A stretch of 62,904 nt of DNA, the filler included, from Chrysochromulina tobinii (Eukaryota): NCBI GenBank assembly GCA_001275005.1. It is 10 parts of 10 records of this genome, joined end to end, with 100 filler letters (N's around TTAATTAATTAA, not from the genome) between each part and the next. Parts side by side here need not be neighbours in the genome. Positions count along the whole stretch, not along the records: positions 49,849 to 59,508 come from JWZX01000403.1; 9 more parts are not named here. The stretch is one strand, 5' to 3'. Below, in pieces: positions 3,798 through 57,991 of this stretch (positions are counted from its first letter, which is position 1; every line of letters begins with the position of its first letter). The notes below the pieces were generated by a model. It made no database searches. It was not told where the DNA came from and saw only the letters and a program-made list of their open reading frames with translations. The translations under genes and the position numbers were made by a program.

Positions 3798-5667
3798 TCA
3801 TCGAACGAAGCAACGCGAATGGTCACCTCCAGCTATCGGCATGCTCGCATGCATGCTTGCAGCTTTGGCCTGTCGCGCCGCATCGCACGCCACGCCCAAT
3901 AGATAGTCGGGTGCCGTAAGCCGCACATCGAGGCTGCTGCTGCTGCTGCTGCTGCTGCCGCTGCTGCCGCTGCTACCGCTACCGGTGCCAGGCGAGCGGC
4001 ATACGAATGCGTCCCGGACATCGCGTAGGGCTTGTAGCTTGCCAAGCGCCTCGGCCTCGCTGATGGCCTCGAGCTGGTCGAGAACAGGGGCGAGGCGCTG
4101 GCGGACGGTTGTCTCGGAGACGAGGTAAGCGATCAAGCACCTGCTCAGAGGGATGGGATCTAATGAGATCTAATGGGATCTAATGAGATCTAATGAGCTC
4201 AGAGGGATGGGATCCTCATCAAAGCCCTGCATCAAAGGCCATCAGACTGGCGCTCAGAGGGTGGATCGCGCACCAATCCAGCCAGGATGTGTACGGCAGG
4301 AAGCGTGAGAGCCGCTGCCCCAGTCCATGCGACTCATCCATGGAAGCATTCAGGCGGGCCCGGTCGGGTGAGGGTCGCTTGGAATGCAGGGGCGGCACGA
4401 CAATGATGGGGATGCAGCCACCCGCGCCGCCGATGGCCACCGCCTCCGCAATCTTCTTGGTCGACCAAGTGTCCCCGGGTGCGACCAAGCAGAAGCGATG
4501 GGCCATCGCTCGGCCTAGGTACGCGTCGTCTTGCTGCCCGTGTGCAGCCATGTGGCTGCGTCCATCGGTGTGGCCTTGGGCTGCGATGAAGCGGCGCGAG
4601 CTTGTGGCATCTGCTTCCATATCAGGTAGCTCGGACGTAAAGTTCACCAGCTCCAAGTAGGGTTTGCAGCGCTGCCGGAAGCTGCGTAGTGCCGCGCTGT
4701 CGGAGCGCGTACGGAGGAGGCTCGCGTCACAAGAGCTCTCCCTGCCGCAGCCGAGGGCGTGGCAATGCGTCCCAAGGAAGCTGACCAGCCCACTCACATG
4801 GCCATTGTACACGCTCCCCTGAACTGAGCGGATGCGCTCGAGCTTCGCCTCACCCTCGAGGGCGAGCGCGCGTCGGCGCAGCTCGAGGTCGCTCAGCAGG
4901 CACGTCCGATACGAGCCGATGGTGCACAGGATCGTCCATGAGGTGGCGGTGACGCGCGGGTCGCGCCTCAACTGCTTCCAGATGAGGTATCGCGTCGGCT
5001 TTATAAAGAGTTTCGGCACGTGCCCCGCGAAGAAGAGCAGCTTACGCCGCGACCACGGCACGATGGGCGGCGGTTGCTCTGTAGCGCCGCCAGCGCCGCC
5101 AGCGCCCGCGCGCTCCGCGTCCCCGGCCGCGTCCCCGGCCGTTGCTCCGTTGCCATCGCCGACCAGCCACGCAGGCGATGCGACCACGAAGGGCGTCACC
5201 TGCACGGAGGGCGGGTCGGCGCTGCGCATCGCCTCGGCGAGAGTGACAATGTTGCGCGGCTTGAAGGAGCCCCGGGTGTCCGCCCACGGCACACCACACA
5301 TGTTTGCCTGGAGAACGACCAAGATTGCGCCGTCATCCCAGCTCGCATTGGCGGCGCCGTGCGGCCAGAGCGTTCGGTCGCTCAGCATCTTGTACCAATT
5401 CGTGCGGCGCATGAACGTCTTGCCCGCGACGCAAAAAAGCGAGAAGTTGGCCACTGCGACTACCAAATCTGCCTCGCTGCGAGTGTACGTTCTCCACGGC
5501 GAACGCTTGGCTGCCTCAGCGAGGTGCAGCTCCATGGCGTATTGGTGAGAAGGCCATGCCGCCGGCTGCCGGTGAGCCGCCAGCGGCTGATGCAGCTCGT
5601 GCACGTAGACCTTGCAGTGCTGCGCGGCGAGTACGTGGGTCGTGCTAGCCGCCCTCGACGTACGCAT
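3798..5667 (-). CDS. Exostosin-like GT47 glycosyltransferase, 2 exons (intron 4141..4273); start uncertain (ORF open to 5790)
   Basis: 'RRKLLFFAG', 'HRFCLVAPGDTWSTKKIAEAV...GCIPIIV' (GT47 FCL.P.GD...EA...GCIPV signature). Splicing 4273..4141 restores 'LPYTSWLDW|CLIAYLVSE'. Confidence 0.8.
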
Positions 5668-13895: not shown

Positions 13896-14584
13896 CCGCG
13901 CTGCTTGAGGTGTTTTGTGGACCCTCACCACGTGGTTCGTCTTCACATCAATCAGTCAGTCAGTCAGTTTCGTGGTTACAAATAGCTTGGAAAGGGGTGG
14001 GGGAGTACGTGCACGCGCTCACGCGTGCGTTGCCTTGGGCCGGTGTGTGGCCTTCGGTCGGCCGAAGATGAGCGTCTGGGGACACGCTGGTGCACGGAGC
14101 GCGCCTGCCAAAGTTGCATGCATTTCATTCACCACATCCCTTTTTTGGTACCTATTGGATGTTTCTGTTTCGAGTTTTCTGTTTCAGACGCGAGCGGGAC
14201 GTTCGAGCCGGAAGGAGCGGCTCCCTAACTTCGGCGTGCGGTGACTCTCCCTGGAATCGCCGCGGCTCTGCGGTCGGCGCATCGGGCCATGTTCATGAGG
14301 CTTCTGGCAAGCTGTGACAGGTGCTCCAGGCACTGAACGACCATTGAGTTGATGGACGCTCCAATTGTTGAGTGGCAAAGGCCGGACGAAACATCCAGCC
14401 GAGCTCGCCCGTGGCTGCGCAACCACAGCCAGCATCTGAGCCACGCACGTCTAGCTGCGGTAGCCGGCTTCCAGTAGCAAACCGTGAGTATAACTGTGGT
14501 ACTGTGAGGGACCTACCGTCCTAGTAACGTTCTCCCGCAGTACCGTTAGTGCAGTTAGAGTAGATAGCTCTTCTTACTTACACC

Positions 14585-14785
14585 CACCTAACCCCCTAAC
14601 CCCCTAACCCCGAACCCCTAACCCCTCTAACCTCCCTCTGGTCTAACCCTTTACATGTGGTTTCGACAGTTAAACCTAACCACACCCACCCGAACCGTAA
14701 AGTCGGTTTCGTAGCCGTAAGAGTAACCGTCATACCGCTCCACCTGTGGTTTCGGCGCAACCCCTAACCCCTCACCCCTAACCTT
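14585..14785. repeat. Degenerate telomere-like CCC(C)TAA repeats, interstitial
   Basis: Clusters 'cctaaccccctaaccccctaaccccgaacccctaacccctctaacc' and 'aacccctaacccctcacccctaacc'. Confidence 0.7.
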
Positions 14786-20253: not shown

Positions 20254-22808
20254 TCACGGCCCAAAGCTCCACTCCCATGGGCCGCTCACCAGCTTCCGAT
20301 GCCGGTTCGTATGCGGGATCACGTCCCAGAAGAAGTCGTACCTGTGGGGAGACGCGGGCGCTGTGGTGAGCACTTGCATGCGGGATCACGTCCCAGAAGA
20401 AGTCGTACCAGACGTGCCCAGCCGCCTTTGGATTGGGCGGCTTGGAGCAGCACCTGTGGGGAGAGGCGGGCGCTGTGGTGAGCGCTTGCATGCAGGGCAG
20501 GACGTCCGCGGCAGTCTCAGCGCTCATCAAGGGGGAGATCGCACCAGATCGAGACCCAATCTCGCATGCGCTGCTGCTCGAGCTCGCCCTCGTCGGCGGG
20601 CAGCGTCGCGTACCTGCGGAAGGTTAATCAAGTTTAATCAAGTTTAATCAAGAGTAATCAAGGTTAATCAAGGGTAATCAAGGGCAGCGTCGCGTACAGG
20701 TCGGGCATGCGCTCAAAGTGGAGCACACGCACTGATCGCATCTCGGCCGTCGAGAGTATTGCGAGCGCGTCGGCGCTCAGGCCCGCGGGCGGCTGCAGCA
20801 CGCGGCGCGAGGCGATGAGCTCCTTGGGGAATCAAGGGGAATCAAGGTTAATCAAGGGAGATCGCACCTGGAGCACGCGGCGCGAGGCGATGAGCTCTTT
20901 GGGGAATCAAGGGGAATCAAGGTTAATCAAGGGAGATCGCACCTGCAGGACGCGGCGTGAGGCGATGAGCTCTTTGGGCGCCCGCGGGTTGTCGAGGAAG
21001 GAATACTCGCGCAGCATCCCCTCGATCGTCCCATCCTGATGAGGGAGGCAATCAGAGGCCATCAGAGGTCATCAGAGGTCATCAGAGGTCAACAGAGGTC
21101 AACAGAGGTCATCAGAGGTCATCAGAGGCCATCAGAAGGAACATCAGAGGCCATCAGAAGGAACATCAGAGGCCATCAGAGGGTCATCAGAAGGACCATG
21201 CTCACCAGCGTGCGCGCCATATGCTCGAGGTCGAGCACATGGTCGGCGGGGCACGGATCGATTGGTAGCATGGTGTCCGATCCAGGGATGGTGCCGTTGT
21301 GTGGAGCCCAGAAGCGGTCGAGGCCACACACGAGCTTGGGCAGGATGAGGATGCGTTGCAGTCGACGAGCGAGCAGCAGCGCCGCGCGCACCTGTGGGGA
21401 GAGGGGGGGCGCCGTGGTGAGCACGTGCATGCAGCCGCCGAGAGAGCACTTGCATGCAGCCGCAGCGGCGGCTTTCTCAACGGCTTTCTCAACGGCTTTC
21501 TCGACAGCACCCACCTGCGTCAGCTGCGGATGCACGAGAGCGAAGTGCGACGAGACGTCCATCACACCCGCAGGCCGCACCTGTGGGGAGAGGAGGGCGT
21601 CGTGATGAGCACGTGCATGCGAGGAGACGTCCATCACACCCGCAGGCCGCACCAGGTGCCGCTGCACCGCCAGATCGAAGCTCAGAAAGCCTTGGAGCTC
21701 GCCGGCGCCAGATTGGATCTCGCTGCCAGATTGAAGCTCGCCGGCGCCAGATTGAATCTCGCCGCCAGATTGAAGCTCGCCGGCGCTCCGGGGAGCTCCG
21801 GCGCGACTGCTCAGGGCGGCGCTCAGCTGTGGGAAATCATGCGAGAACTGTGCCCGCGTGCGGCTGCTCAGGCGCGGCGCATAGTACGACGGCTCGTCAT
21901 ACCTGTGGGGAGAGGGCGCCGTGGTGAGCAAAAGAGGCATGCAGCGCGCGCCACGGACGACGGCTCATGATGTCATGCTCATCATGCACGTGCTCACCAC
22001 GGCGCCCCCTCCCCACATGATGGCAGGCTCATCATGCATGTGCTCACCACGGCGCCCCCTCCCCACATGATGGCAGGCTCATCATGCATGTGCTCACCAC
22101 ATCATCGCCTCGCGCAGCCGGTGCGTCTTGCCAATGGCGCCCGAGTACTGGAAGGTCGTGTGCACTGTGAACGGTTCGATCGGCGGAGGGACAATCAGCA
22201 TCCAATCAGCATCCAATCAGCATGCAATCAGCATGCAATCAGCATGCAATCAGCATGCAATCAGCATGCAATCTAGGCCGATGAAGGGCACCTGTGAACG
22301 GTTCGATCGGCGGGGTCATGCGCTGCGGCATGCGCTGCACGAAGTACGTGTGGCCCGAGCAGTAGGTGGCGACGGGTAGGATCCCGATCGTGATGGTGCC
22401 ATTGTACCCGAGAAAGAGGCGCTTCGAGCGCGCCGGCTCGGGCACCTGCATGCAACAAAAGGGTCACTCAGCATGCAAACGCTTGTACCCGAGGAAGAGG
22501 CGGCTGGGCGCGCGCCGGCTCGGGCACCTGCTCACGAAACTTGAGGCCGCCGATCTTGAGCACGTCCTTGAAGAGGTTCTGATCCCAAAGGTTGGGGTGG
22601 GCCGCGCACCTGATGAGCGAGGCAATCAGAGGTCATTAGAGGCCAGGGGCATATTGACGAGGTTCTGATCCCAAAGGTTGGGGTGGGCCGCGCACTCGGC
22701 TTGCCAATGGAGCATGGCTGGCAAGACGTCATGCCTGAGGTACATGTACCCGATGTTCCACGCGGAGGAGCTCGAGCGCCAAGGGTCCTCAAGCTCGGTC
22801 TCGGGAGA
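20254..22808 (-). CDS. XEG113: XEG113-like arabinosyltransferase (GT77), 5' truncated; at least 11 introns: 20342-20408, 20454-20544, 20614-20697, 20793-20942, 21036-21205, 21392-21514, 21581-21652, 21903-22097, 22165-22291, 22446-22527, 22610-22695, plus one ending at 22809
   Basis: Manual GT-AG splicing yields a continuous frame with motifs AWNIGYMYLR..WDQNLF..GILPVATYCSGHTYFVQ..FTVHTTFQYSGAIGKTHRLREAMMWYDEPSYY..FLSF..HFALVHPQLTQVRAAL..CGLDRFWAPHNG..CPADHVLD..REYSFLDNP..IWCC..GHVWYDFFWD, colinear with plant/green-algal XEG113 as I recall it. Confidence 0.88.
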
Positions 22809-22940
22809 CTGATGAGGGGCGTAATCGGACGCAATCAGAAGGTAATCATCAGAGCTCGGTCTCGGGAGACTGATGAGGGGCGTAATCGGACGCAATCAGA
22901 AGGTAATCATCAGAGCTCGGTCTCGGGAGACTGATGAGGG
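22792..22940. repeat. 61-nt tandem repeat (~2.5 copies) of intron acceptor plus first 17 nt of the exon
   Basis: AGCTCGGTCTCGGGAGACTGATGAGGGGCGTAATCGGACGCAATCAGAAGGTAATCATCAG repeated up to the contig end. Confidence 0.9.
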
Positions 22941-24802: not shown

Positions 24803-25646
24803 GGCCTGACTGAGGTTGCTGGGGCAGAATGGGCTAGTTTGAGGGGCGGCGCCAGCAAACACAGGCGAGGGCGCCTCTGCCGGCTTCACGCGCGGGATTG
24901 GGATTGGTGGCGGGGTTAGGATGGAGCAGGTTGGCGACCGACAACGCATGCCCTTGCCGGAAGCGAACACTGCCAGGTATGTGACCATGGGGCCAAGACA
25001 GACGATGGGAGAACAGGGTTACCCTACGGGGGTGGCTGGAGTGGCCGAGGAGCGTGGCAGGTGTTCAGCGGAGCGTTCGTGCTGCAGGCCGCAGGCGCGA
25101 CGGTGCCTCAGTCATTTTACGGTAGGTCACAAGAGGGTGATGTTGCAGGCGCGATGGCGCCTCTCTCCCATGTGGGCGCTCGGAAAGGATGGGGATCACG
25201 GAGGTCGGACCGGACCCGGGGACCGGACGCAGATGGGTATTGGATGCATGTGGAGAGCGCGTAGGGTGGAGGACGGACGCACACGACGTTTCCCATTTTG
25301 CGAACGAGTGGTGGCGGTGTGTGTAGTTCGTAGTGGTGGCGCGTGGCGGTGTCCAGACAGGTTGGCCGATGGCCATTTATGATTAGCTGAAACCTCAATC
25401 TTCCTCTAAGCACTCCTGTCGTGGACACTCCTGAGGAACCAAATGAAAAATAATCCAGTTTGCAACCAAAATAATCCAGAAAAAGTTATTTTCGTAGGGG
25501 CATCAATCTAGTCATCCGGACGTCCAGGAAAAGTTATTTTCGAGGGGCATCGAATGGGCGATTCTCGCGCCTTGAGGGCGTTTCTCGCGCGTTGAGGTGT
25601 GGAACGGACAAGTTACGCTTTCGCGCATCGAAATCGCGAGAAGACC

Positions 25647-26387
25647 ATGCTCAGGATCGTCGTCGCTGCGTCGCTCATTGCATCTGGCGATGCGCTCAAC
25701 GTGCCTGTCGCGGGCATGTCTCGTCGTGCGGCCTTTGCCAAGGCCGCCGCGCTGATCCCGCTCGTGCCTCTCGCCGCGTTCGCCGAGCTCAAGCAGGCGT
25801 CAGATGCGGATGTCTACGCACGCGCAGACGCGGGCAAGCTCAACGCAGCCCGCGTCATCGAGCGTGCCAAGGCAGGCAAGCTCGTCAATGGCGCAAGCGC
25901 CACCTGCGACGAGCTCGCCGACATCCTCGCGATCGACCGCCGTGCTTTCCAGTTCGAGAAGGACAAGCTGGCCTCGATGCCCAATGACTCCCCACAGAGG
26001 CAGACCGTCGCGAACGCCCAGAAGGCGATCGGGGTCCAGATCAAGAAGATTAAGGACCTCGAGAAGACCAAGTCGTGCCCGGGGCTGAAGCAGGCGTCAG
26101 ACGAGGAGGTCTACGAGCGTGCGGACGCGAACAAGCTCGGCTACGCCCGCGTCATCGAGCGTGCCAAGGCGGGCAAGCTCGTCGATGGCTCGAGCGCCAC
26201 CTGCTCCGAGCTGGAGAAGATTATCCGCGTCGACAAGGAGGCCGTCCTGTTCGAGAAGGACAAGCTCGAGGCCATGCCTAACGACCCCGCGCAGAAGAAG
26301 ATCGTCGCGGACGCCGAGAAGGCCATCGAGGCCCAGATCGTCAAGCTCAACAACAAGCGCAAGGAGAAAAAGTGCACAGTTAAGTAA
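25647..26387 (+). CDS. Predicted plastid/thylakoid-lumen protein with two internal ~100-aa repeats (paralog 1)
   Basis: Signal peptide, then 'MSRRAAFAKAAALIPLVPLAAFA' (twin-Arg, hydrophobic, AxA); repeat 'LKQASD..VY.RAD..KL..ARVIERAKAGKLV.G.SATC.EL'. Strong C/G third-position bias. Confidence 0.75.
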   Translation: MLRIVVAASLIASGDALNVPVAGMSRRAAFAKAAALIPLVPLAAFAELKQASDADVYARADAGKLNAARVIERAKAGKLVNGASATCDELADILAIDRRAFQFEKDKLASMPNDSPQRQTVANAQKAIGVQIKKIKDLEKTKSCPGLKQASDEEVYERADANKLGYARVIERAKAGKLVDGSSATCSELEKIIRVDKEAVLFEKDKLEAMPNDPAQKKIVADAEKAIEAQIVKLNNKRKEKKCTVK

Positions 26388-26689
26388 GTAACATTAACAT
26401 TAAGTAGTAAGTGAAAATCGCCTCGAAAAAAGCGTACACGTGGCGAGGGGGTTACCCCCAGGCATACTAAGAGTGCACGGTGTGAGGAGACTGAGGAGAA
26501 GAAGTGCAACTGTGAACTGACTCTGAGGCTGCCCCTGACATGGATTCCAGGATTGTGACCGCAAGTGATCCACAAGAACGATCACATCAGACGGAGAGTC
26601 GAGAAAGTCAGAGAGGCAGTGGAATATCGCTCGTCTTGACACATCTCATAATAACAACCCTTGCATCATTTTATTATTTTGATGTTGAA

Positions 26690-26900
26690 CAGCGACACTG
26701 ACTGCGGCCCCCCCCAAAATTGGCGGCCCCGCGGCCGCGCGCGCGCTTTCCCGCCTCCGGCTCCGCCTATCGCATTCTGCGCCGAGACGTGCAACTGGGG
26801 TCTGGGCTTCCGACGCCGATTGCGCGACGACGGCGGCATGGACGGCGGCCCCGGCTCGGAGTTCCGCCCGGCCCCGCCCCTCGGGCCGACGGCATGGAAT
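26690..26900 (+). pseudogene. Degenerate fragment of a Cys-rich repeat (C.ETCNW...DDGGPGSEF / TDCGP type)
   Basis: Pieces 'TDCGP', 'PPPAPP', 'FCAETCNW', 'DGGPGSEF' with disrupted frame between them. Confidence 0.35.
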
Positions 26901-27113
26901 GAGACCGTTGGACCTTCAGTACAAGATAAACGGGGGAGGGGACGCGATGCCGGTGGCAGCTCTGAGACACATTCGTCGGGGCAACGTCGGATTGATCCTC
27001 GCGCTTTGAGGGGCGACGTCGGGGTTTCGTTTGGGCGTTTCTCGCGCCTAGAGGGCGTTTCTCGCGCCTTGAGGTGTGGAAAGTTTCGCGCATCACTCTC
27101 GCAAGTGATCAAC

Positions 27114-27851
27114 ATGCTCTACAAGCTCATCGTCGCTGCCGCGCTCATTGCATCTGGCGATGCGCTCAACGTGCCTGTCGCGGGCATGTCTCGTCGTGCG
27201 GCCTTTGCCAAGGCCGCCGCGCTGATCCCGCTCGTGCCTCTCGCCGCGTTCGCCGAGCTCAAGCAGGCGTCAGATGCTGAGGTCTACGGACGCGCAGACG
27301 CGGGCAAGCTCAGCGCCGCCCGCGTCATCGAGCGTGCCAAGGCGGGCAAGCTCGTCGATGGCTCGAGCTCCAACTGCCAAGAACTCGCCGACATCATCGC
27401 GGTCGACCGCCGTGCTGTCCAGTTTGAGAAGGACAAGCTGTCCTCGATGCCCGATGACCCCGCGCAGAAGAAGGTCGTCTCGGACGCCGAGAAGGCGATC
27501 GAGGCCCAGATCAAGAAGCTGGAGGGCCTCGAGAAGTCCAAGTCATGCGCGGGGCTGAAGCAGGCGTCAGACGCGGAGGTCTACGAGCGTGCGGACGACA
27601 ACAAGCTCGGCTACGCCCGCGTCATCGAGCGTGCCAAGGCGGGCAAGCTCGTCGATGGCTCGGGCGCCACCTGCTCCGAGCTGGAGAAGATTATCCGCGT
27701 CGACAAGGAGGCCGTCCTGTTCGAGAAGGACAAGCTCGAGGCCATGCCCAACGACCCCGAGCAGAAGAAGATCGTCGCGGACGCCGAGAAGGCCATCGAG
27801 GCCCAGATTGTCAAGCTCAACAACAAGCGCAAGGAGAAGAAGTGCAACTGA
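27114..27851 (+). CDS. Predicted plastid/thylakoid-lumen protein with two internal repeats (paralog 2)
   Basis: Near-identical to 25647..26387, including a duplicated upstream motif TTCTCGCGCCTTGAGG. Confidence 0.75.
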   Translation: MLYKLIVAAALIASGDALNVPVAGMSRRAAFAKAAALIPLVPLAAFAELKQASDAEVYGRADAGKLSAARVIERAKAGKLVDGSSSNCQELADIIAVDRRAVQFEKDKLSSMPDDPAQKKVVSDAEKAIEAQIKKLEGLEKSKSCAGLKQASDAEVYERADDNKLGYARVIERAKAGKLVDGSGATCSELEKIIRVDKEAVLFEKDKLEAMPNDPEQKKIVADAEKAIEAQIVKLNNKRKEKKCN

Positions 27852-46443: not shown

Positions 46444-49400
46444 ATGGCGATGAGGCCGTTACTGGTGGCGATGGCTTCGGAGAGGCGGGCGAGGCGGCCG
46501 CCCTCTTGGCCGCCTCAGACTTGGCAGCTGCGGCATCCACAGACTCTTCTTTTGTACTATCAAACGGCGCAGCAATCGCGGCCGCGAGCCCGCCGAAAAA
46601 CGACGAATGCTTCTTGACCTTCTCGGCCGCCGCTTTTCCGACCACAACGTGCTCAGCCGCCGCGGGATCAGGTGCTGAAGGCGCGGCAGCAACCTGCTCG
46701 GCCGCTGCATCGAAGGACGGAATCTCAAGCTCCATCACCATGGGCTTCTCCGCCGCGCGCTGCATCTCGTCCTTGATGCGGGCCGTCACCGCAGGGCGAG
46801 TCATACCCTCCATCGACTCACCTGCGACGCTGATGACCTTGCTGCCGATCGCCACGCCTTGCTGCTCAGCCTGCGAGCCTGGAGTCACACTGAGGATGGT
46901 GACACACCCGTCCACATAACCAAACGCCATCCCCAGAGGGCCCGGACCGAAGGTGGCCGTGCGCCGCAAGGTCGTTGGCAAAGCAGGCACCGCTACAGAA
47001 GCAGTGGTCTCCACAGGCTCTTCCTTGGCACTCTTAGACGGCGAAGCAATCGCCGCCGCGAGCCCGCCGAAAAAGGACGAACGCTTCTTAACCTTCTCGG
47101 CCGCCGCCGGCTCAGCTGCAGACTGTTCGGACGCCGAAGGCACGGCCACCCCCTGCTCCATAAGCACTGTCTCATTCGCTGCCTGCTCGGACGCCCCTTT
47201 ACCGGCCTTGACAGCCTCTGGAGTTAAGGCTGCAGAACGAGCAGCTTCACCGACGGACGGATTCTCAAGCTCCAGCACCATGGGCTTCTCCGCCGCACGC
47301 TGCATCTCGTCCTTGATGCGGGCCGTCACCGCAGGGCGAGTCATACCCTCCATCGACTCACCTGCGACGCTGATGACCTTGCTGCCGATCGCCACGCCTT
47401 GCTGCTCAGCCTGCGAGCCTGGAGTCACATTGAGGATGGTGACGCAGCCGTCCACATGGCCAAACACCATCCCCAGAGGGCCCGGACCGAAGGTGGCCGT
47501 GCGCCGCTGCGGAGTAGAGGGTGCCACGGGGGGGGGCGCACTGAAGAGCGCGGCCGCCGCAGAGAGGGAGGCGTCGGAAACGCGAGTGGTCGGTGCTCCT
47601 CCAAAGGGGTTTGACGATCCGCCTGGTGGGTCGTCGAATGGCGATGAGGCCGTTACTGGTGGCGATGGCTTCGGAGAGGCGGGCGAGGCGGCCGCCCTCT
47701 TGGCCGCCTCAGACTTGGCAGCTGCAGCCTCTGCACGAGAGACTTCGTCGACGGACGGAATCTCGAGCTCCAGCACCATGGGCTTCTCCGCCGCACGCTG
47801 CATCTCGTCCTTGATGCGGGACATCACGGGAGCGCGAGTCATACCCTCCATCGTCTCACCTGCGACGCTGATGACCTTGCTGCCGATCGCCACGCCTTGC
47901 TGCTCAGCCTGCGAGCCTGGAGTCACACTGAGGATGGTTACGCAGCCGTCCACATAACCAAACGCCATCCCCAGAGGGCCCGGACCGAAGGTGGCCGTGC
48001 GCCGCAAGGTTGAAGTGAGCACCGTGGCGTCGAGATCGGCAAACAGCTCAGCAGGCGGCCCGGCGGGTGGAGTCGCTGGAACTGCCTCCTTCTTGTTCTC
48101 GAAGGGCGCCGCCATCACAGTGGCGGCGGCATTGGCGGCGGCAGTAAGGCCACCAAGAAGCGACAAGGGACGTTTCGTCCCCGTCTTCAAGGGCGCTACG
48201 TGGTTGGCCGGCGCCTTCACAGCCTTCTCCATGTTGGCGTAATCATCTCCCTCCTGGGCTTGGAGTATCGATGAAAGCGGGTTAGCGTCAGCCGGGATGG
48301 CGGCCTGCTCGGAAGCCGCAGGCGCAACGGAGTTCATGTCTTCAGTGGCGGTGGCGGGCTCGGCGTATGCTTCTGACTCAAGCTCCAAGGACATAGGTTT
48401 CTCCGCCGCGTGCTGCATCTCCTCCTTGATCAAAGCAACGACTTCGGCGTACGGGACGCCCTCCGTCGGCTTACCTGCCACGCTGACGACCTTGCTGCCG
48501 ACAACTACCCCTTGCGCCGCCCCCGACGAGCCCGGGGCTACGCTGTGGATGGTGCAACCGTCCACGTCGCCAAAGGTCAGCCCAAGTCGGCCGGGACCGA
48601 AGGTGACCGTACGCCGAGGAGATGCGGGCGCATCAACCGACCGGGCAGGCGACCCTGCAGGTGCTGCAGTTTCCGCAGGCACCTCGTAAGTGCTCTCAAA
48701 CGGCGAAGCGATCGCCGCCGCAAGTCCGCCGAAGAATGACGAATGCTTCTCGACCTTTTCGGCCGCCACTGTTTCGGCCTCTGCCAGCTCAGCCGCTGCC
48801 AGCTCAGCCGCTGCCTGCTCGGCCGCCGCCACATCGGCCGCTGCCTTCTCGGCAGCAACCTGCTCAGCGGCTGCCAGCTCGACCGCCGCCTTCTCGGCCG
48901 CTGCCTTCTCGGCCGCCGCCGCCTCAGCAGCTGTCATCTCGGCCGCCGCCTTCTCCGAAGCTGCTTTCTCAACCGCCGCCTGCTCAGACGTCGACTTTTC
49001 AGCCGCCGCCTGCTCGACCGCCGCCGCCTGCTCGACCGCCGCCGCCTGCTCGGCGGCCGCCTTCTTGGCCGCCTCTATCTCGGCAGCTGCGACTGCGGCA
49101 CGAGCAGCTTCGTCGACGGATGGAATCACGAGCTCCAGCACCATGGGCTTCTCCGCTGCGCGCTGCATCTCGTCCTTGATGCGGGACATCACGGGAGCGC
49201 GAGTCATACCCTCCACAACAATACCTGCGACGCTGATGACCTTGCTGCCGATCGCCACGCCTTGCTGCTCAGCCTGCGAGCCTGGAGTCACACTGAGGAT
49301 GGTGACACACCCGTCCACATAACCAAACACCATCCCCAGAGGGCCCGGACCGAAGGTGGCCGAGCGAAGAAGAGTCGACGGCGCAGAAAACGCCGCTGCC

Positions 49401-53649: not shown

Positions 53650-53890
53650 TCCGCCGGCGCTATGCGCCGGCAACGTTTGAATACGAAGTGTCGCCGGCGC
53701 TACACGCTCCTCGTTTGAATACAAATTTTCGCCGGCGCTACGCGCCGGCCTAAATTTTCGCCGGCGCTGTGCGCCGGCAACGTTTGAATACGAAGTGTCG
53801 CCGGCGCTACACGCTCCTCGTTTGGATACAAATTTTCGCCGGCGCTACGCGCCGGCCTAAATTTTCGCCGGCGCTGTGCGCCGGCCTTTA
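53650..53890. repeat. ~107-nt tandem repeat (~2.2 copies) rich in the CGCCGGCG palindrome
   Basis: Directly visible; lies in an AT-rich intergenic region. Confidence 0.85.
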
Positions 53891-55320: not shown

Positions 55321-57991
55321 ATGCTTTTGCGACTGCGGACACCATCAGCGCTATGGCGCGCCGCGCCGCACGCAACGCCAACCCGATGCGCCATACGAAC
55401 GCTGTCGACACGTGGTCAGCGGCACGGCGCCGACCGTCAACATCAAAAGAAGAAGAAGCCACAGCTCACGTTCAAGGATGTGGTTCTGCGCGTGCCAGAG
55501 CTGTGCACGGCGGAGCGCTTCGCGCAGGAGCTCCGCATGTCGACTCCCAAGCTGCAGGAGCTCGCCGAGGAGCTCGGCGAGCACATCGATGCGCCAAGCC
55601 GGCCGCTGACGGCGGAGGTGATGGAGCTGCTCGCGATGGAGGTGGGTGCGACGCTGCAGATCACGCCCGTCGACGTGAGCCGCCGGCCGTCGCCCAGCGA
55701 AAAGGAGCGCGCCTCGCTGCCAGTGCGCCCGCCGGTGGTCACGCTCATGGGCCACGTCGATCACGGTAAGACGTCTCTTCTCGACGCCTTCCGCAACAGC
55801 GACATCGCGAGCGGCGAGGCAGGCGGTATCACGCAGGGCATCTCGGCGTTCATCGTGGACGAGGGCACGGAGCAGGTGCGCGATGGCCTCAGATGGCCTC
55901 TGATCGCCTCTGATCGCCTCTGATCGCCTCTGATCGCCTCAGTCAGCCCTTGATTCCCTCTGACCGCCACGCGTGGATGGCGGTACCGAGCAGGCGATGA
56001 CGTTCATCGATACGCCCGGACACGAACTCTTCGCGGCAATGCGCCAGCGCGGCGCGCGCGCGACCGACATCATCATCCTGGTTGTCGCCGTGGACGCGGG
56101 CGTGCAGCCGACCACCGAGCAGGCCATCGAGTTCGCGCGCCAGATGGGCACACCACTCGTCGTCGCGATCAATAAGATGGACCGTCCCGATGCACAGAAG
56201 CTACTTCCAAAGATCACGCAGCAGCTTCTCGCGCGTGGCGTGGTGCCAGAAGACATGGGCGGCGAGGTGCCGCTCGTCGGTGTGTCGGCCACCAAACGGC
56301 TCCATTTGGATAGGCTGCGCGAGGCGGTGCTGCTGCAGGCCGAGCTGCTCGAGCTACGGGCCGAATCCCAGGGGCCCGCCGAGGGCGTGGTGCTCGAGGC
56401 CACGGTACAGAAAGGACTTGGCGTCGTCGCCAATGTGCTTGTGCAGCGTGGGGCTCTGAAGCCGTCAGATTTGGTGGTCGTCGGGACCACCTGGGGCAAG
56501 ATCAAGACGCTCACGCCCACAGACGTGCGTGCTACTTTTGCGTTGCCACTGAGTGCCGCTGAGTGCCACGGAGTGCTACTGAGGGCCACTGAGTGCCGCT
56601 GAGTGCCACGGAGTGCCACTGAGGGCCACTGAGTGCCGCTGAGTGCCACGGAGTGCCACTGAGGGCCACTGAGTGCCGCTGAGTGCCACGGATTGCCACT
56701 GAGGGCCACGGATTGCTTCCCTCATCAGGGCACACGCCGTCTGGACGAGGCGGGCCCTTCGACTCCGGTGCGCATCTCGGGTCTGCGCGAGCTGCCGCGC
56801 ACAGGCGACGAGCTCCTCGTGGTCGGCACGGAGGCGAAGGCGAAGCAGGTGAGCGAGTACCGACTCGCACGCCAAAGTCTCGAGAAGCAAGCGGAGCAAG
56901 ATGAGGCAGCACGGGTGCTTGCCGAGACGGCGGCGGCCAAGCTGGCAGCGGCCAAGGCGGCGGCTGCCATGGCTGCCCAGGCTGGAAACGCCGATGCCGC
57001 CGCGGCAGAGGCGGCCGCGGCCGAGGCAGCCGAGGCGGCCGCGGCTGAGGCGGCGGCAGCGGCGGCTCCGAAGCTTGTACCGGCCGTGCTGAAGGCGGAG
57101 AGTGCGGGTGCTCTCGAGGCCGTGCATGCATCGCTCAGCCAATTCCCACAGGACCGGGTAAAGCTCAAGGTGATCCGCGCCGACGTGGGCGCGGTCACCG
57201 AGGCCGATGTGCAGCTGGCCGAGGCGACGAGCTCCGCGATCATTGGTTTCAATGTGGGCATTCCCAGCAAGGTGAAACCAATGCATGCACGCTCACCTTG
57301 AAACCAATGCATGCCCAGCAGGGTGAGCGTGCATGACTGCGATGAATTGCCATTCATTGTCCACGACTGCCACTGAGGGCTCTGAGGGCCTCTGGCGACC
57401 ATCCATTTGACGACCATCCCTAATGGACTTCTACTGATGAGCCGTGATTGCATAAGCATGCCCTCTACTTGCCTCCCTCATCAGGTGAGCAGCTTGGCTG
57501 AGGAGCTCGGGGTGCCCGTGCTTCGTCACGCCATCATCTACGAGTTGAGTGACCGCGTCAAGGAGCTGCTTGAGAACGCCATCGAGCCGGTCCTCGAGGA
57601 GATCGTTCTCGGCGCCGCCCAGGTGCAGCAGCTCTTCACACTCACACTCAACCGCAAGGACCGGCGCTCAGGCATGCTCAAGCAGACCCAGGTCGCCGGG
57701 TTGCTCGTGAGTGAGGGAGAGGCGAGCGCGGTGGCCCGCGTGCGAGTCGAGCGCGGCGCGGGCAACGTGCTGCACGAGGGGCGCGTCGTCTCACTCAAGC
57801 ACTTCAAGAACGAGGTCAAGACGGTCCGACGCGGCCTGGAGTGCGGCATTGTGCTCGCCAACTACAGTGGGTGCGAGCCGGGTGACATCCTCACGTTCTA
57901 CGACATCGTGCCGAGGAAGCCGAGCCTCTATGAGGCCGCGGCGGGCAGCACCAGCAGTGGCAGTGGTGGAAAGCCCAAGGAGGATGGCTAG
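55321..57991 (+). CDS. MTIF2: Mitochondrial translation initiation factor IF2; introns 55876..55993, 56525..56728, 57272..57484
   Basis: '[27 protein letters not shown]', '[22 protein letters not shown]', 'AINKMD', '[16 protein letters not shown]'. GT-AG splicing gives a continuous frame; Arg-rich presequence. Confidence 0.93.

What the first reader, a model, noticed from the sequence alone, without database searches (positions are those of the whole stretch)
56525..57484. Second shared acceptor cassette A (GATTGCCTCCCTCATCAG) on unlinked contigs
Seen: IF2 introns end GATTGCTTCCCTCATCAG (56728) and CTTGCCTCCCTCATCAG (57484); XEG113-like introns end GATTGCCTCCCTCATCAG (21036), GATTGCCTCGCTCATCAG (22610) and GATTACGCCCCTCATCAG (22809). 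The same ~18-mer in unrelated genes goes beyond a normal spliceosomal consensus. Inference: a second dispersed family of intron ends.
Basis: partly seen in the sequence, partly recalled or inferred. Interest (0 to 1): 0.72.

Follow-up and report, generated by a model that had tools for sequence, protein, structure and literature searches.

The report
Introns that copy their own ends
In a freshwater haptophyte alga, many introns in unrelated genes end in the same 20 letters and often begin with a fresh copy of the neighbouring exon, likely because repair-type DNA copying pastes the end of an existing intron into a short duplication of a gene and so makes a new intron without a transposon.

Summary
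The motif is the 3' end (branch-point-like CTGAT, pyrimidine run, CAG) of spliced introns in Chrysochromulina tobinii or a near-identical strain. Of 195 non-redundant ends, mostly from metagenome loci, 86 have, upstream, an 11-55 nt copy of the exon that follows the AG (control 0). In 73 the copy starts with GT/GC and likely is the donor. The scan reported this footprint before, on another piece of this genome (e1-2577349). New here: four parent-daughter pairs in which one intron carries exon-derived sequence from another intron's gene, two within one locus; microhomology at the joins; copy and insert lengths that compensate; mirror-image introns whose acceptor comes from an upstream-exon copy; and an unrelated family B with the same anatomy. 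Best reading: microhomology-guided template switching duplicates a piece of exon and inserts an intron end, and selection keeps the products that splice (0.5). RNA-templated copying is the main rival (0.25). Gain at empty sites is inferred, not shown. A 2025 introner survey lists this species with 0 families.

The parts
56525..56728 (+). IF2 intron 2: GT start, 9-10 nt repeat array, family-A end; no exon copy visible
   Evidence: spliced in X13, X14, X15
56711..56728 (+). family-A 3' cassette, 1 mismatch
57272..57484 (+). IF2 intron 3: family-A end; holds an internal copy of the exon junction (about 57320-57335), read as nested events
   Evidence: spliced; sequence; nesting inferred
57467..57484 (+). 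family-A 3' cassette, 2 mismatches
55876..55993 (+). IF2 intron 1, mirror type: GT plus repeats, acceptor from a diverged 22-nt copy of the upstream exon (17 of 22 identical)
   Evidence: spliced in X13, X15
55321..57991 (+). host gene, translation initiation factor IF2, three phase-0 introns, 711 codons
21036..21205 (-). intron with 10-nt repeat array and a perfect family-A end; no exon copy
   Evidence: spliced in X13, X15, X17
22610..22695 (-). type example: about 37-42 nt copy of the downstream exon (gives GT) plus family-A end
   Evidence: splicing from contig piece lengths
22809..22940 (-). intron 3' part: tandem 61-nt units of exon start plus diverged family-A end; donor beyond the contig end
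22446..22527 (-). downstream-exon copy plus a CATGCAG-ending insert
22165..22291 (-). mirror type: GT, 11-nt repeats, truncated family-A end, then a perfect 22-nt upstream-exon copy giving AG
21581..21652 (-). downstream-exon copy (about 29-35 nt) plus family-B end
   Evidence: spliced
20793..20942 (-). mirror type, two units of donor piece plus upstream-exon copy
20614..20697 (-). 16-nt downstream-exon copy plus TTGATTAAC repeats and TTCCGCAG end
   Evidence: spliced
20342..20408 (-). 31-nt perfect downstream-exon copy plus family-B end
   Evidence: spliced

Best explanation
The shared 18-20 nt is the branch point and acceptor end of spliced introns, and it has been copied from intron to intron, most likely by microhomology-guided template switching during DNA repair or replication, with no element-encoded enzyme. 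Shown: the motif ends spliced introns; many of these start with a copy of the following exon; some carry exon-derived sequence from another intron's gene. Inferred: a nascent strand runs 10-55 nt past a GT/GC in an exon, jumps through a few matching bases into the 3' part of another intron (often nearby, same strand), copies to its AG, and rejoins behind the point it left. The first exon copy becomes the donor, the insert gives branch point and acceptor, and the mRNA is unchanged. Selection keeps products of about 60-100 nt that splice. Each new intron is a template for the next, and arrays of 10-11 nt CTGAT repeats give both landing sites and spare branch points, so a few ends (A, B) come to dominate.
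For: Exon copy anchored at the AG: 86 of 195, against 0 with another locus's exon and 4 of 194 with the same exon 60 nt on. 167 of 197 ends are followed by GT or GC. The 109 ends without a long copy show excess short matches: 43 of 5 nt or more, against about 17.5. Microhomology at the copy-insert join: mean 2.5 vs 0.9 nt, P = 2e-6, in the 41 of 72 introns that could be scored. Parent-daughter pairs: L026 5613 to 2745 (same gene, different phase and domain position), L049 2764 to 1515, L069 to L129, L105 to L048; the first, third and fourth share about 7-12 nt with the recipient at the entry point. Similar ends are enriched within a locus: 20 of 216 vs 458 of 18,699 pairs. Copy and insert lengths anticorrelate (rho -0.45, P = 7e-5, n = 73), median intron 82 nt. 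Terminal copies keep AG in 195 of 197, internal ones in 123 of 140. About 15 of 35 mirror-type candidates are convincing by eye; their inserts stop at variable points. Unrelated family B shows the same footprint: 32 of 72 vs 2 of 354. 32 of 73 copies are still perfect. None of 15 introns in the L026 gene is at a shared position in its three AAA repeats (donors chosen by hand, no RNA).
Against: No empty-site allele was found in the four allelic pairs aligned, so gain is not shown directly. 109 of 195 ends lack a long copy, as do 3 of the 5 ends named in the finding (56728, 21036, and 57484 with only a short internal one). The sharp stop at AG and the near-total sense orientation (517 vs 2 repeat words; 138 vs 9 neighbours) are what an RNA template would give; the DNA model has to put both down to selection and homology. 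There are only four pairs, and the L049 pair is diverged. No polymerase was identified.
Confidence: 0.5

Rival explanations
1. RNA-templated insertion: a reverse transcriptase copies excised intron or pre-mRNA from its 3' AG at a nick, truncates at a variable point, and a staggered second cut leaves a long, variable target-site duplication, as non-LTR elements do.
For: One sharp end at AG and one ragged end with microhomology; variable duplication length; sense orientation; local bias would fit repair from the gene's own transcript.
Against: Mirror-type introns with inserts that stop short of AG and rare inverted copies (window 21903-22097, L103) are not predicted. No poly(A) tail or shared 5' body was seen. 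In the two partial-copy pairs, parent and daughter exon starts match for 3 and 5 nt (chance 0.25 and 0.04), a weak hint that copying ran past the AG. A reverse transcriptase source was not searched for.
Confidence: 0.25
2. The intron positions are old. Their ends were homogenised by gene conversion, and the exon copies came from template switches between intron-bearing and intron-less alleles or cDNA (aborted intron loss).
For: Explains both polarities. In the wild RNA run X15 the exon matches the intronic copy at 20793-20808. No empty sites were seen.
Against: Differences between exon and copy are 15 synonymous to 17 non-synonymous, matching neutral decay (expected 0.43, P = 0.39), so the copies are not shown to come from other alleles. 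85% GT/GC after the AG would be high for old introns (general knowledge, no in-genome control). Ectopic pairs and unshared positions in AAA repeats.
Confidence: 0.12
3. A non-autonomous HUH (Replitron-like) element: read on the antisense strand, a fixed end sits next to an AC/GC dinucleotide, the far end is fuzzy and parent-derived, and the duplication is variable, as for Chlamydomonas Replitron-1.
For: The geometry resembles the four insertion rules in PMC10288648 section 9; a Replitron-like protein is listed for this species.
Against: That protein is a single-copy fragment. No terminal direct repeats were seen, the hairpin is not significant (z -0.4 to -1.6), and unrelated families share the footprint.
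Confidence: 0.08
4. Ordinary strong acceptor consensus of this species, or an assembly artefact.
For: The motif does contain a branch-point-like CTGAT, a pyrimidine run and CAG.
Against: Other spliced introns end differently. The exon copies, pairs and length compensation are unexplained by a consensus. The same structures recur in separate assemblies and diverged alleles, and RNA contigs skip exactly one copy plus the insert.
Confidence: 0.03

Closest known systems
Introner-like elements of Symbiodinium, Polarella glacialis (classes 4, 5, 6, 8, 10) and Aureococcus (bioRxiv 10.1101/2020.10.14.339549, Results section read)
   Same: [quoted passage not shown]
   Different: Those classes have fixed 4 or 8 nt duplications (3-8 nt over the classes described) and the Symbiodinium ones have inverted repeats. 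Here the duplication is 11-55 nt and variable, there is no fixed second end, and copies pick up exon sequence from earlier hosts.
Introners of marine Chrysochromulina MAGs (PMC9860276, passages and supplement rows seen)
   Same: Same genus; multi-copy introns that co-opt one splice site.
   Different: The figured family has a 4 bp TSD and carries the 5' site. C. tobinii was in the screened list but its name occurs only there in the part of the supplement held (file cut). PMC12130899 lists it with 0 families (files 13-14 not searched).
Intron gain by tandem genomic duplication, intron transposition and double-strand-break repair (review PMC3443670, passages seen)
   Same: A duplicated exon supplies a splice site; intron sequence reappears elsewhere; direct repeats flank the new intron.
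   Different: In the classical duplication model both sites come from a duplicated AGGT. Here one site comes from a templated intron fragment. The review's table counted 14 transposition and 5 repair events; this looks like thousands in one genome (estimate).
Alternative end joining with templated insertions and tandem duplications (review PMC7407515, passages seen)
   Same: Microhomology joins, templated inserts, duplications with ectopic filler.
   Different: The passages seen do not describe self-amplifying families of intron ends.
Replitron-1 of Chlamydomonas (PMC10288648, sections 8-9 read)
   Same: Orientation-specific, one fixed and one fuzzy parent-derived end, variable duplication.
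   Different: Replitrons are 0.9-3.6 kb with terminal direct repeats and a Rep gene, and are not intron-forming in the sections read.

Membership tests
Introner (Gozashti et al. criteria) | similar introns in at least 4 unrelated genes | tested here: met
   195 non-redundant ends; flanks of two trans pairs unrelated outside the intron
Introner (Gozashti et al. criteria) | correctly spliced | tested here: met
   RNA contig joints for window introns; not tested for metagenome loci
Introner (Gozashti et al. criteria) | similarity reaches both exon-intron boundaries | tested here: not met
   consensus falls to about 0.6 or less upstream of position -20; 5' ends are host-exon copies; whole-intron copies in two pairs only
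Introner (Gozashti et al. criteria) | similarity not driven by simple repeats | tested here: inconclusive
   the 20-nt end is unique sequence, the part upstream is 10-11 nt satellite
DNA-transposon (MITE-type) introner | fixed 3-9 bp target-site duplication | tested here: not met
   11-55 nt, continuous range
DNA-transposon (MITE-type) introner | terminal inverted repeats | tested here: not met
   only a 5-8 nt CTGAT(GA)/(TC)ATCAG pairing at no fixed left end; folding z -0.4 to -1.6
Tandem genomic duplication intron | both splice sites from the duplicated segment | tested here: not met
   one site comes from the insert in acceptor and mirror types
Non-LTR retroelement insertion (TPRT) | variable duplication, one truncated end with microhomology (features recalled) | tested here: met
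Non-LTR retroelement insertion (TPRT) | partner reverse transcriptase sharing the element's end | not tested
   no whole genome was available; loci were not scanned for RT domains
Replitron | short direct terminal repeats | tested here: not met
   no shared left terminus in the inserts inspected
Replitron | Rep HUH transposase acting on these ends | not testable with these tools
   paper lists one fragment in this species
Recent intron gain | intron absent in alleles or orthologues | tested here: inconclusive
   four allelic pairs aligned, all picked for having the motif, none with an empty site; unshared positions in AAA repeats
Structured RNA (Rfam) | match to a family at gathering score | tested here: not met
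   0 matches in the window

The most novel reading that the evidence does not exclude
An element-free chain reaction of intron gain: every intron's 3' end is a template, ordinary repair polymerases paste it into short exon duplications, and ends carrying branch-point satellites out-replicate the rest, so that thousands of introns in one genome, perhaps a fifth or more of them, descend from a few intron ends with no transposase, no master copy and no fixed boundaries, invisible to current introner searches.
Probability: 0.45. Interest if true: 0.9.

Novelty: new variant of a known kind. Interest (0 to 1): 0.77.

Why it matters
Where new spliceosomal introns come from is a long-open question, and recent surveys credit transposons (PMC12130899). 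This system keeps the record of single events: the pre-insertion exon can be read off the duplication, and source and copy can be paired. It would show intron-to-intron copying on a genome scale, by a route that the published pipelines filter out because they need similarity at both intron ends and drop satellite-driven families. The alga is cultured and wild alleles are in public data, so empty sites and fresh events can be looked for directly.

Tried and rejected
No whole genome was available, so there is no genome-wide count; copy number is extrapolated. The viral contig scan found 0 matches. The idea that exon copies come from other alleles because differences looked synonymous was rejected (15 of 32). 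L037/L084 looked like a presence-absence site, but the upstream exons are not homologous. A hairpin or hammerhead reading was rejected (the hammerhead core is recalled). An automatic gene model of L026 failed and was replaced by hand-set donors. The inverted-copy count (26 of 318) is mostly chance matches of the GC-rich B core and is not used as a number. Two of the 7 junction hits were satellite-only and were dropped; the control gave 4 of 256, which I read as satellite matches. Summed contig depth is not used as copy number. The coding-strand test (153 of 195 sense) rests on a small codon model. Literature searches that found no description of this system; the library lacks most subscription papers. 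From memory only, Read et al. 2013 reported 10-11 bp tandem repeats and many GC donors in Emiliania introns; that paper was not seen. The SI PDF of PMC9860276, the cut part of its table, files 13-14 of PMC12130899 and the bioRxiv supplements were not seen and could list related families.

Full report
Observation. The 18-mer with up to 3 mismatches occurs 6 times in the window against 0.04 expected. The window is a chain of contigs joined by linkers. One IF2 exon is 100% identical over 180 residues to a protein named from Chrysochromulina tobinii, so the organism is that haptophyte or a near-identical strain. RNA contigs skip all three IF2 introns with GT..AG ends (two or three RNA runs each) and the DNA run does not. 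In the minus-strand gene, joints are listed for 21036-21205 and six other introns. The 22610 and 22809 ends rest on contig piece lengths in the same call.

Extent. An exact 20-mer scan of metagenome contigs returned 136 stretches (131 loci) from 4 of 64 parts, with about 2,200 estimated; viral contigs gave 0. These loci plus the window hold 471 matches at up to 2 mismatches, 357 after removing overlaps and alleles: 197 terminal with enough flank, 140 followed by another copy within 130 nt, and 20 dropped as too near an end. Density is about 3.3 per 10 kb within 2 kb of a seed copy, 16 in 137 kb further out, and 4 in the 62 kb window. Scaled to the 59 Mb genome (PMC4580454, passages seen), that is a few thousand copies. 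This is a rough figure from biased samples. That paper gives 16,777 genes with about one intron each.

Anatomy. The fixed part is 20 nt: a branch-point-like CTGAT (consensus recalled), a pyrimidine run and CAG; upstream the consensus dissolves into 10-11 nt repeats that each hold CTGAT or a variant. AG is kept in 195 of 197 terminal and 123 of 140 internal copies. GT or GC follows in 167 of 197. In 86 of 195, the sequence right after the AG recurs upstream for 11-55 nt; controls give 0 and 4 of 194. In 73 the copy begins with GT/GC; 32 of these are perfect and overall divergence is 72 of 1,825 nt. Copy and insert lengths compensate (rho -0.45), and introns cluster around 82 nt. The 109 without a long copy show excess 5-8 nt matches and often nested structures.

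Source of the inserts. Four pairs show one intron carrying sequence that derives from another intron's own exon. In L026 the intron ending at 2745 is a whole copy of the one ending at 5613, in another phase and domain position. L049 has a diverged pair 1.25 kb apart. L129 switches from its own exon copy into the L069 intron through about 12 shared bases. L048 holds the whole L105 intron at a site sharing 12 nt with it. The flanks of the two trans pairs match only inside the intron. With 195 ends drawn from about 4,000, some 9-10 would have their parent in the sample; two visible distant pairs fit an every-copy-is-a-source model if a fifth to a third of copies reach the tagged part (rough inference). 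Joins show microhomology (2.5 vs 0.9 nt; 41 of 72 scorable), and similar ends cluster within loci.

Not specific to one sequence. A motif-free scan of 895 repeat-insert-repeat structures gave 121 acceptor-type and 35 mirror-type candidates. Both lists hold false positives; about 15 mirror cases are convincing by eye. Family B, an unrelated end, has the copy in 32 of 72 cases against 2 of 354 controls. Of 13 window introns scored, 5 start with a downstream-exon copy, 3 end in an upstream-exon copy and 5 show neither. This argues against an enzyme that recognises cassette A and for a general copying process filtered by splicing.

Mechanism. Best reading (0.5): template switching with microhomology, as in alternative end joining or replication restart, duplicates a piece of exon around a templated insert. 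Only products with a GT/GC at the return point, an AG at the exit and enough length survive in coding DNA. The satellites would raise both the chance of being copied and the chance that a truncated copy has a branch point. Splicing, duplication, ectopic copying and microhomology are shown; the strand switch, the enzyme, the selection and gain at empty sites are inferred. Against it stand the sharp AG end and sense orientation (517 vs 2), which favour an RNA template (0.25). Remodelling of old introns (0.12) is weakened by neutral divergence of the copies and by unshared positions of 15 introns over three AAA repeats, but no empty allele was found. A Replitron-like route (0.08) has the right geometry but only a fragment is reported in this species. 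That the family is real and spreads by intron-to-intron copying I put near 0.9.

Comparison. It works like the introners that bring an acceptor and borrow a donor from their target duplication, but fails their defining tests: no fixed short duplication, no inverted termini, no shared 5' end. The published pipeline requires similarity at both boundaries and removes satellite-driven families (PMC12130899, parts 1-3 of 7 read), and lists this species with 0 families. It combines parts of three textbook routes: tandem duplication, intron transposition and break repair. Nine paper searches found no description of it, within the limits of the library and of the supplements not seen.

Verdict. Real, spliced and high-copy, with readable single events; a new variant of intron-generating propagation; interest 0.77.

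Noticed in passing
window 21903-22097 (-): Intron starts inside reverse-complement copies of the family-B cassette, which supply a GTGAG donor, and ends in a sense family-B cassette; length fits the RNA contig pieces.
   Followed up: partly
window 20793-20978 (-): Three copies of an 11-codon exon piece differ only at synonymous sites, and wild RNA run X15 carries the variants of the intronic copy in its exon.
   Followed up: partly
window 20454-20544 and 20793-20942 (-): Two introns of one gene share the same 12-nt 5' start, suggesting local copying of donor ends as well.
   Followed up: no
L026 2300-6060 (+): Triple AAA (SpoVK/CbbX-like, label recalled) gene with 15 introns in 722 codons, 10 with family-A ends; far above the reported average of one intron per gene.
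   Followed up: yes
window 56881-57129 (+): Database protein P0001 lacks an alanine-rich stretch that RNA contigs of X15 cover in large part, so that gene model probably has a false intron.
   Followed up: partly
L103 300-531: Two family-A ends face outward about 210 nt apart, a rare inverted arrangement.
   Followed up: no
window 14582-14783 (+): Degenerate CCCTAA-like repeats resembling internal telomeric sequence; a similar repeat lies in an intron 3' end in L071.
   Followed up: no
window 53652-53887: 107-nt repeat of 2.2 copies with internal 29-nt units, just upstream of the IF2 region.
   Followed up: no
window 25556-27808: Two similar blocks about 1.47 kb apart, each with a 297-nt repeat.
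   Followed up: no
window 46830-49239 (-): A block of at least 57 nt recurs four times, each followed by CGTCGCAG and GT, possibly repeated exons.
   Followed up: no
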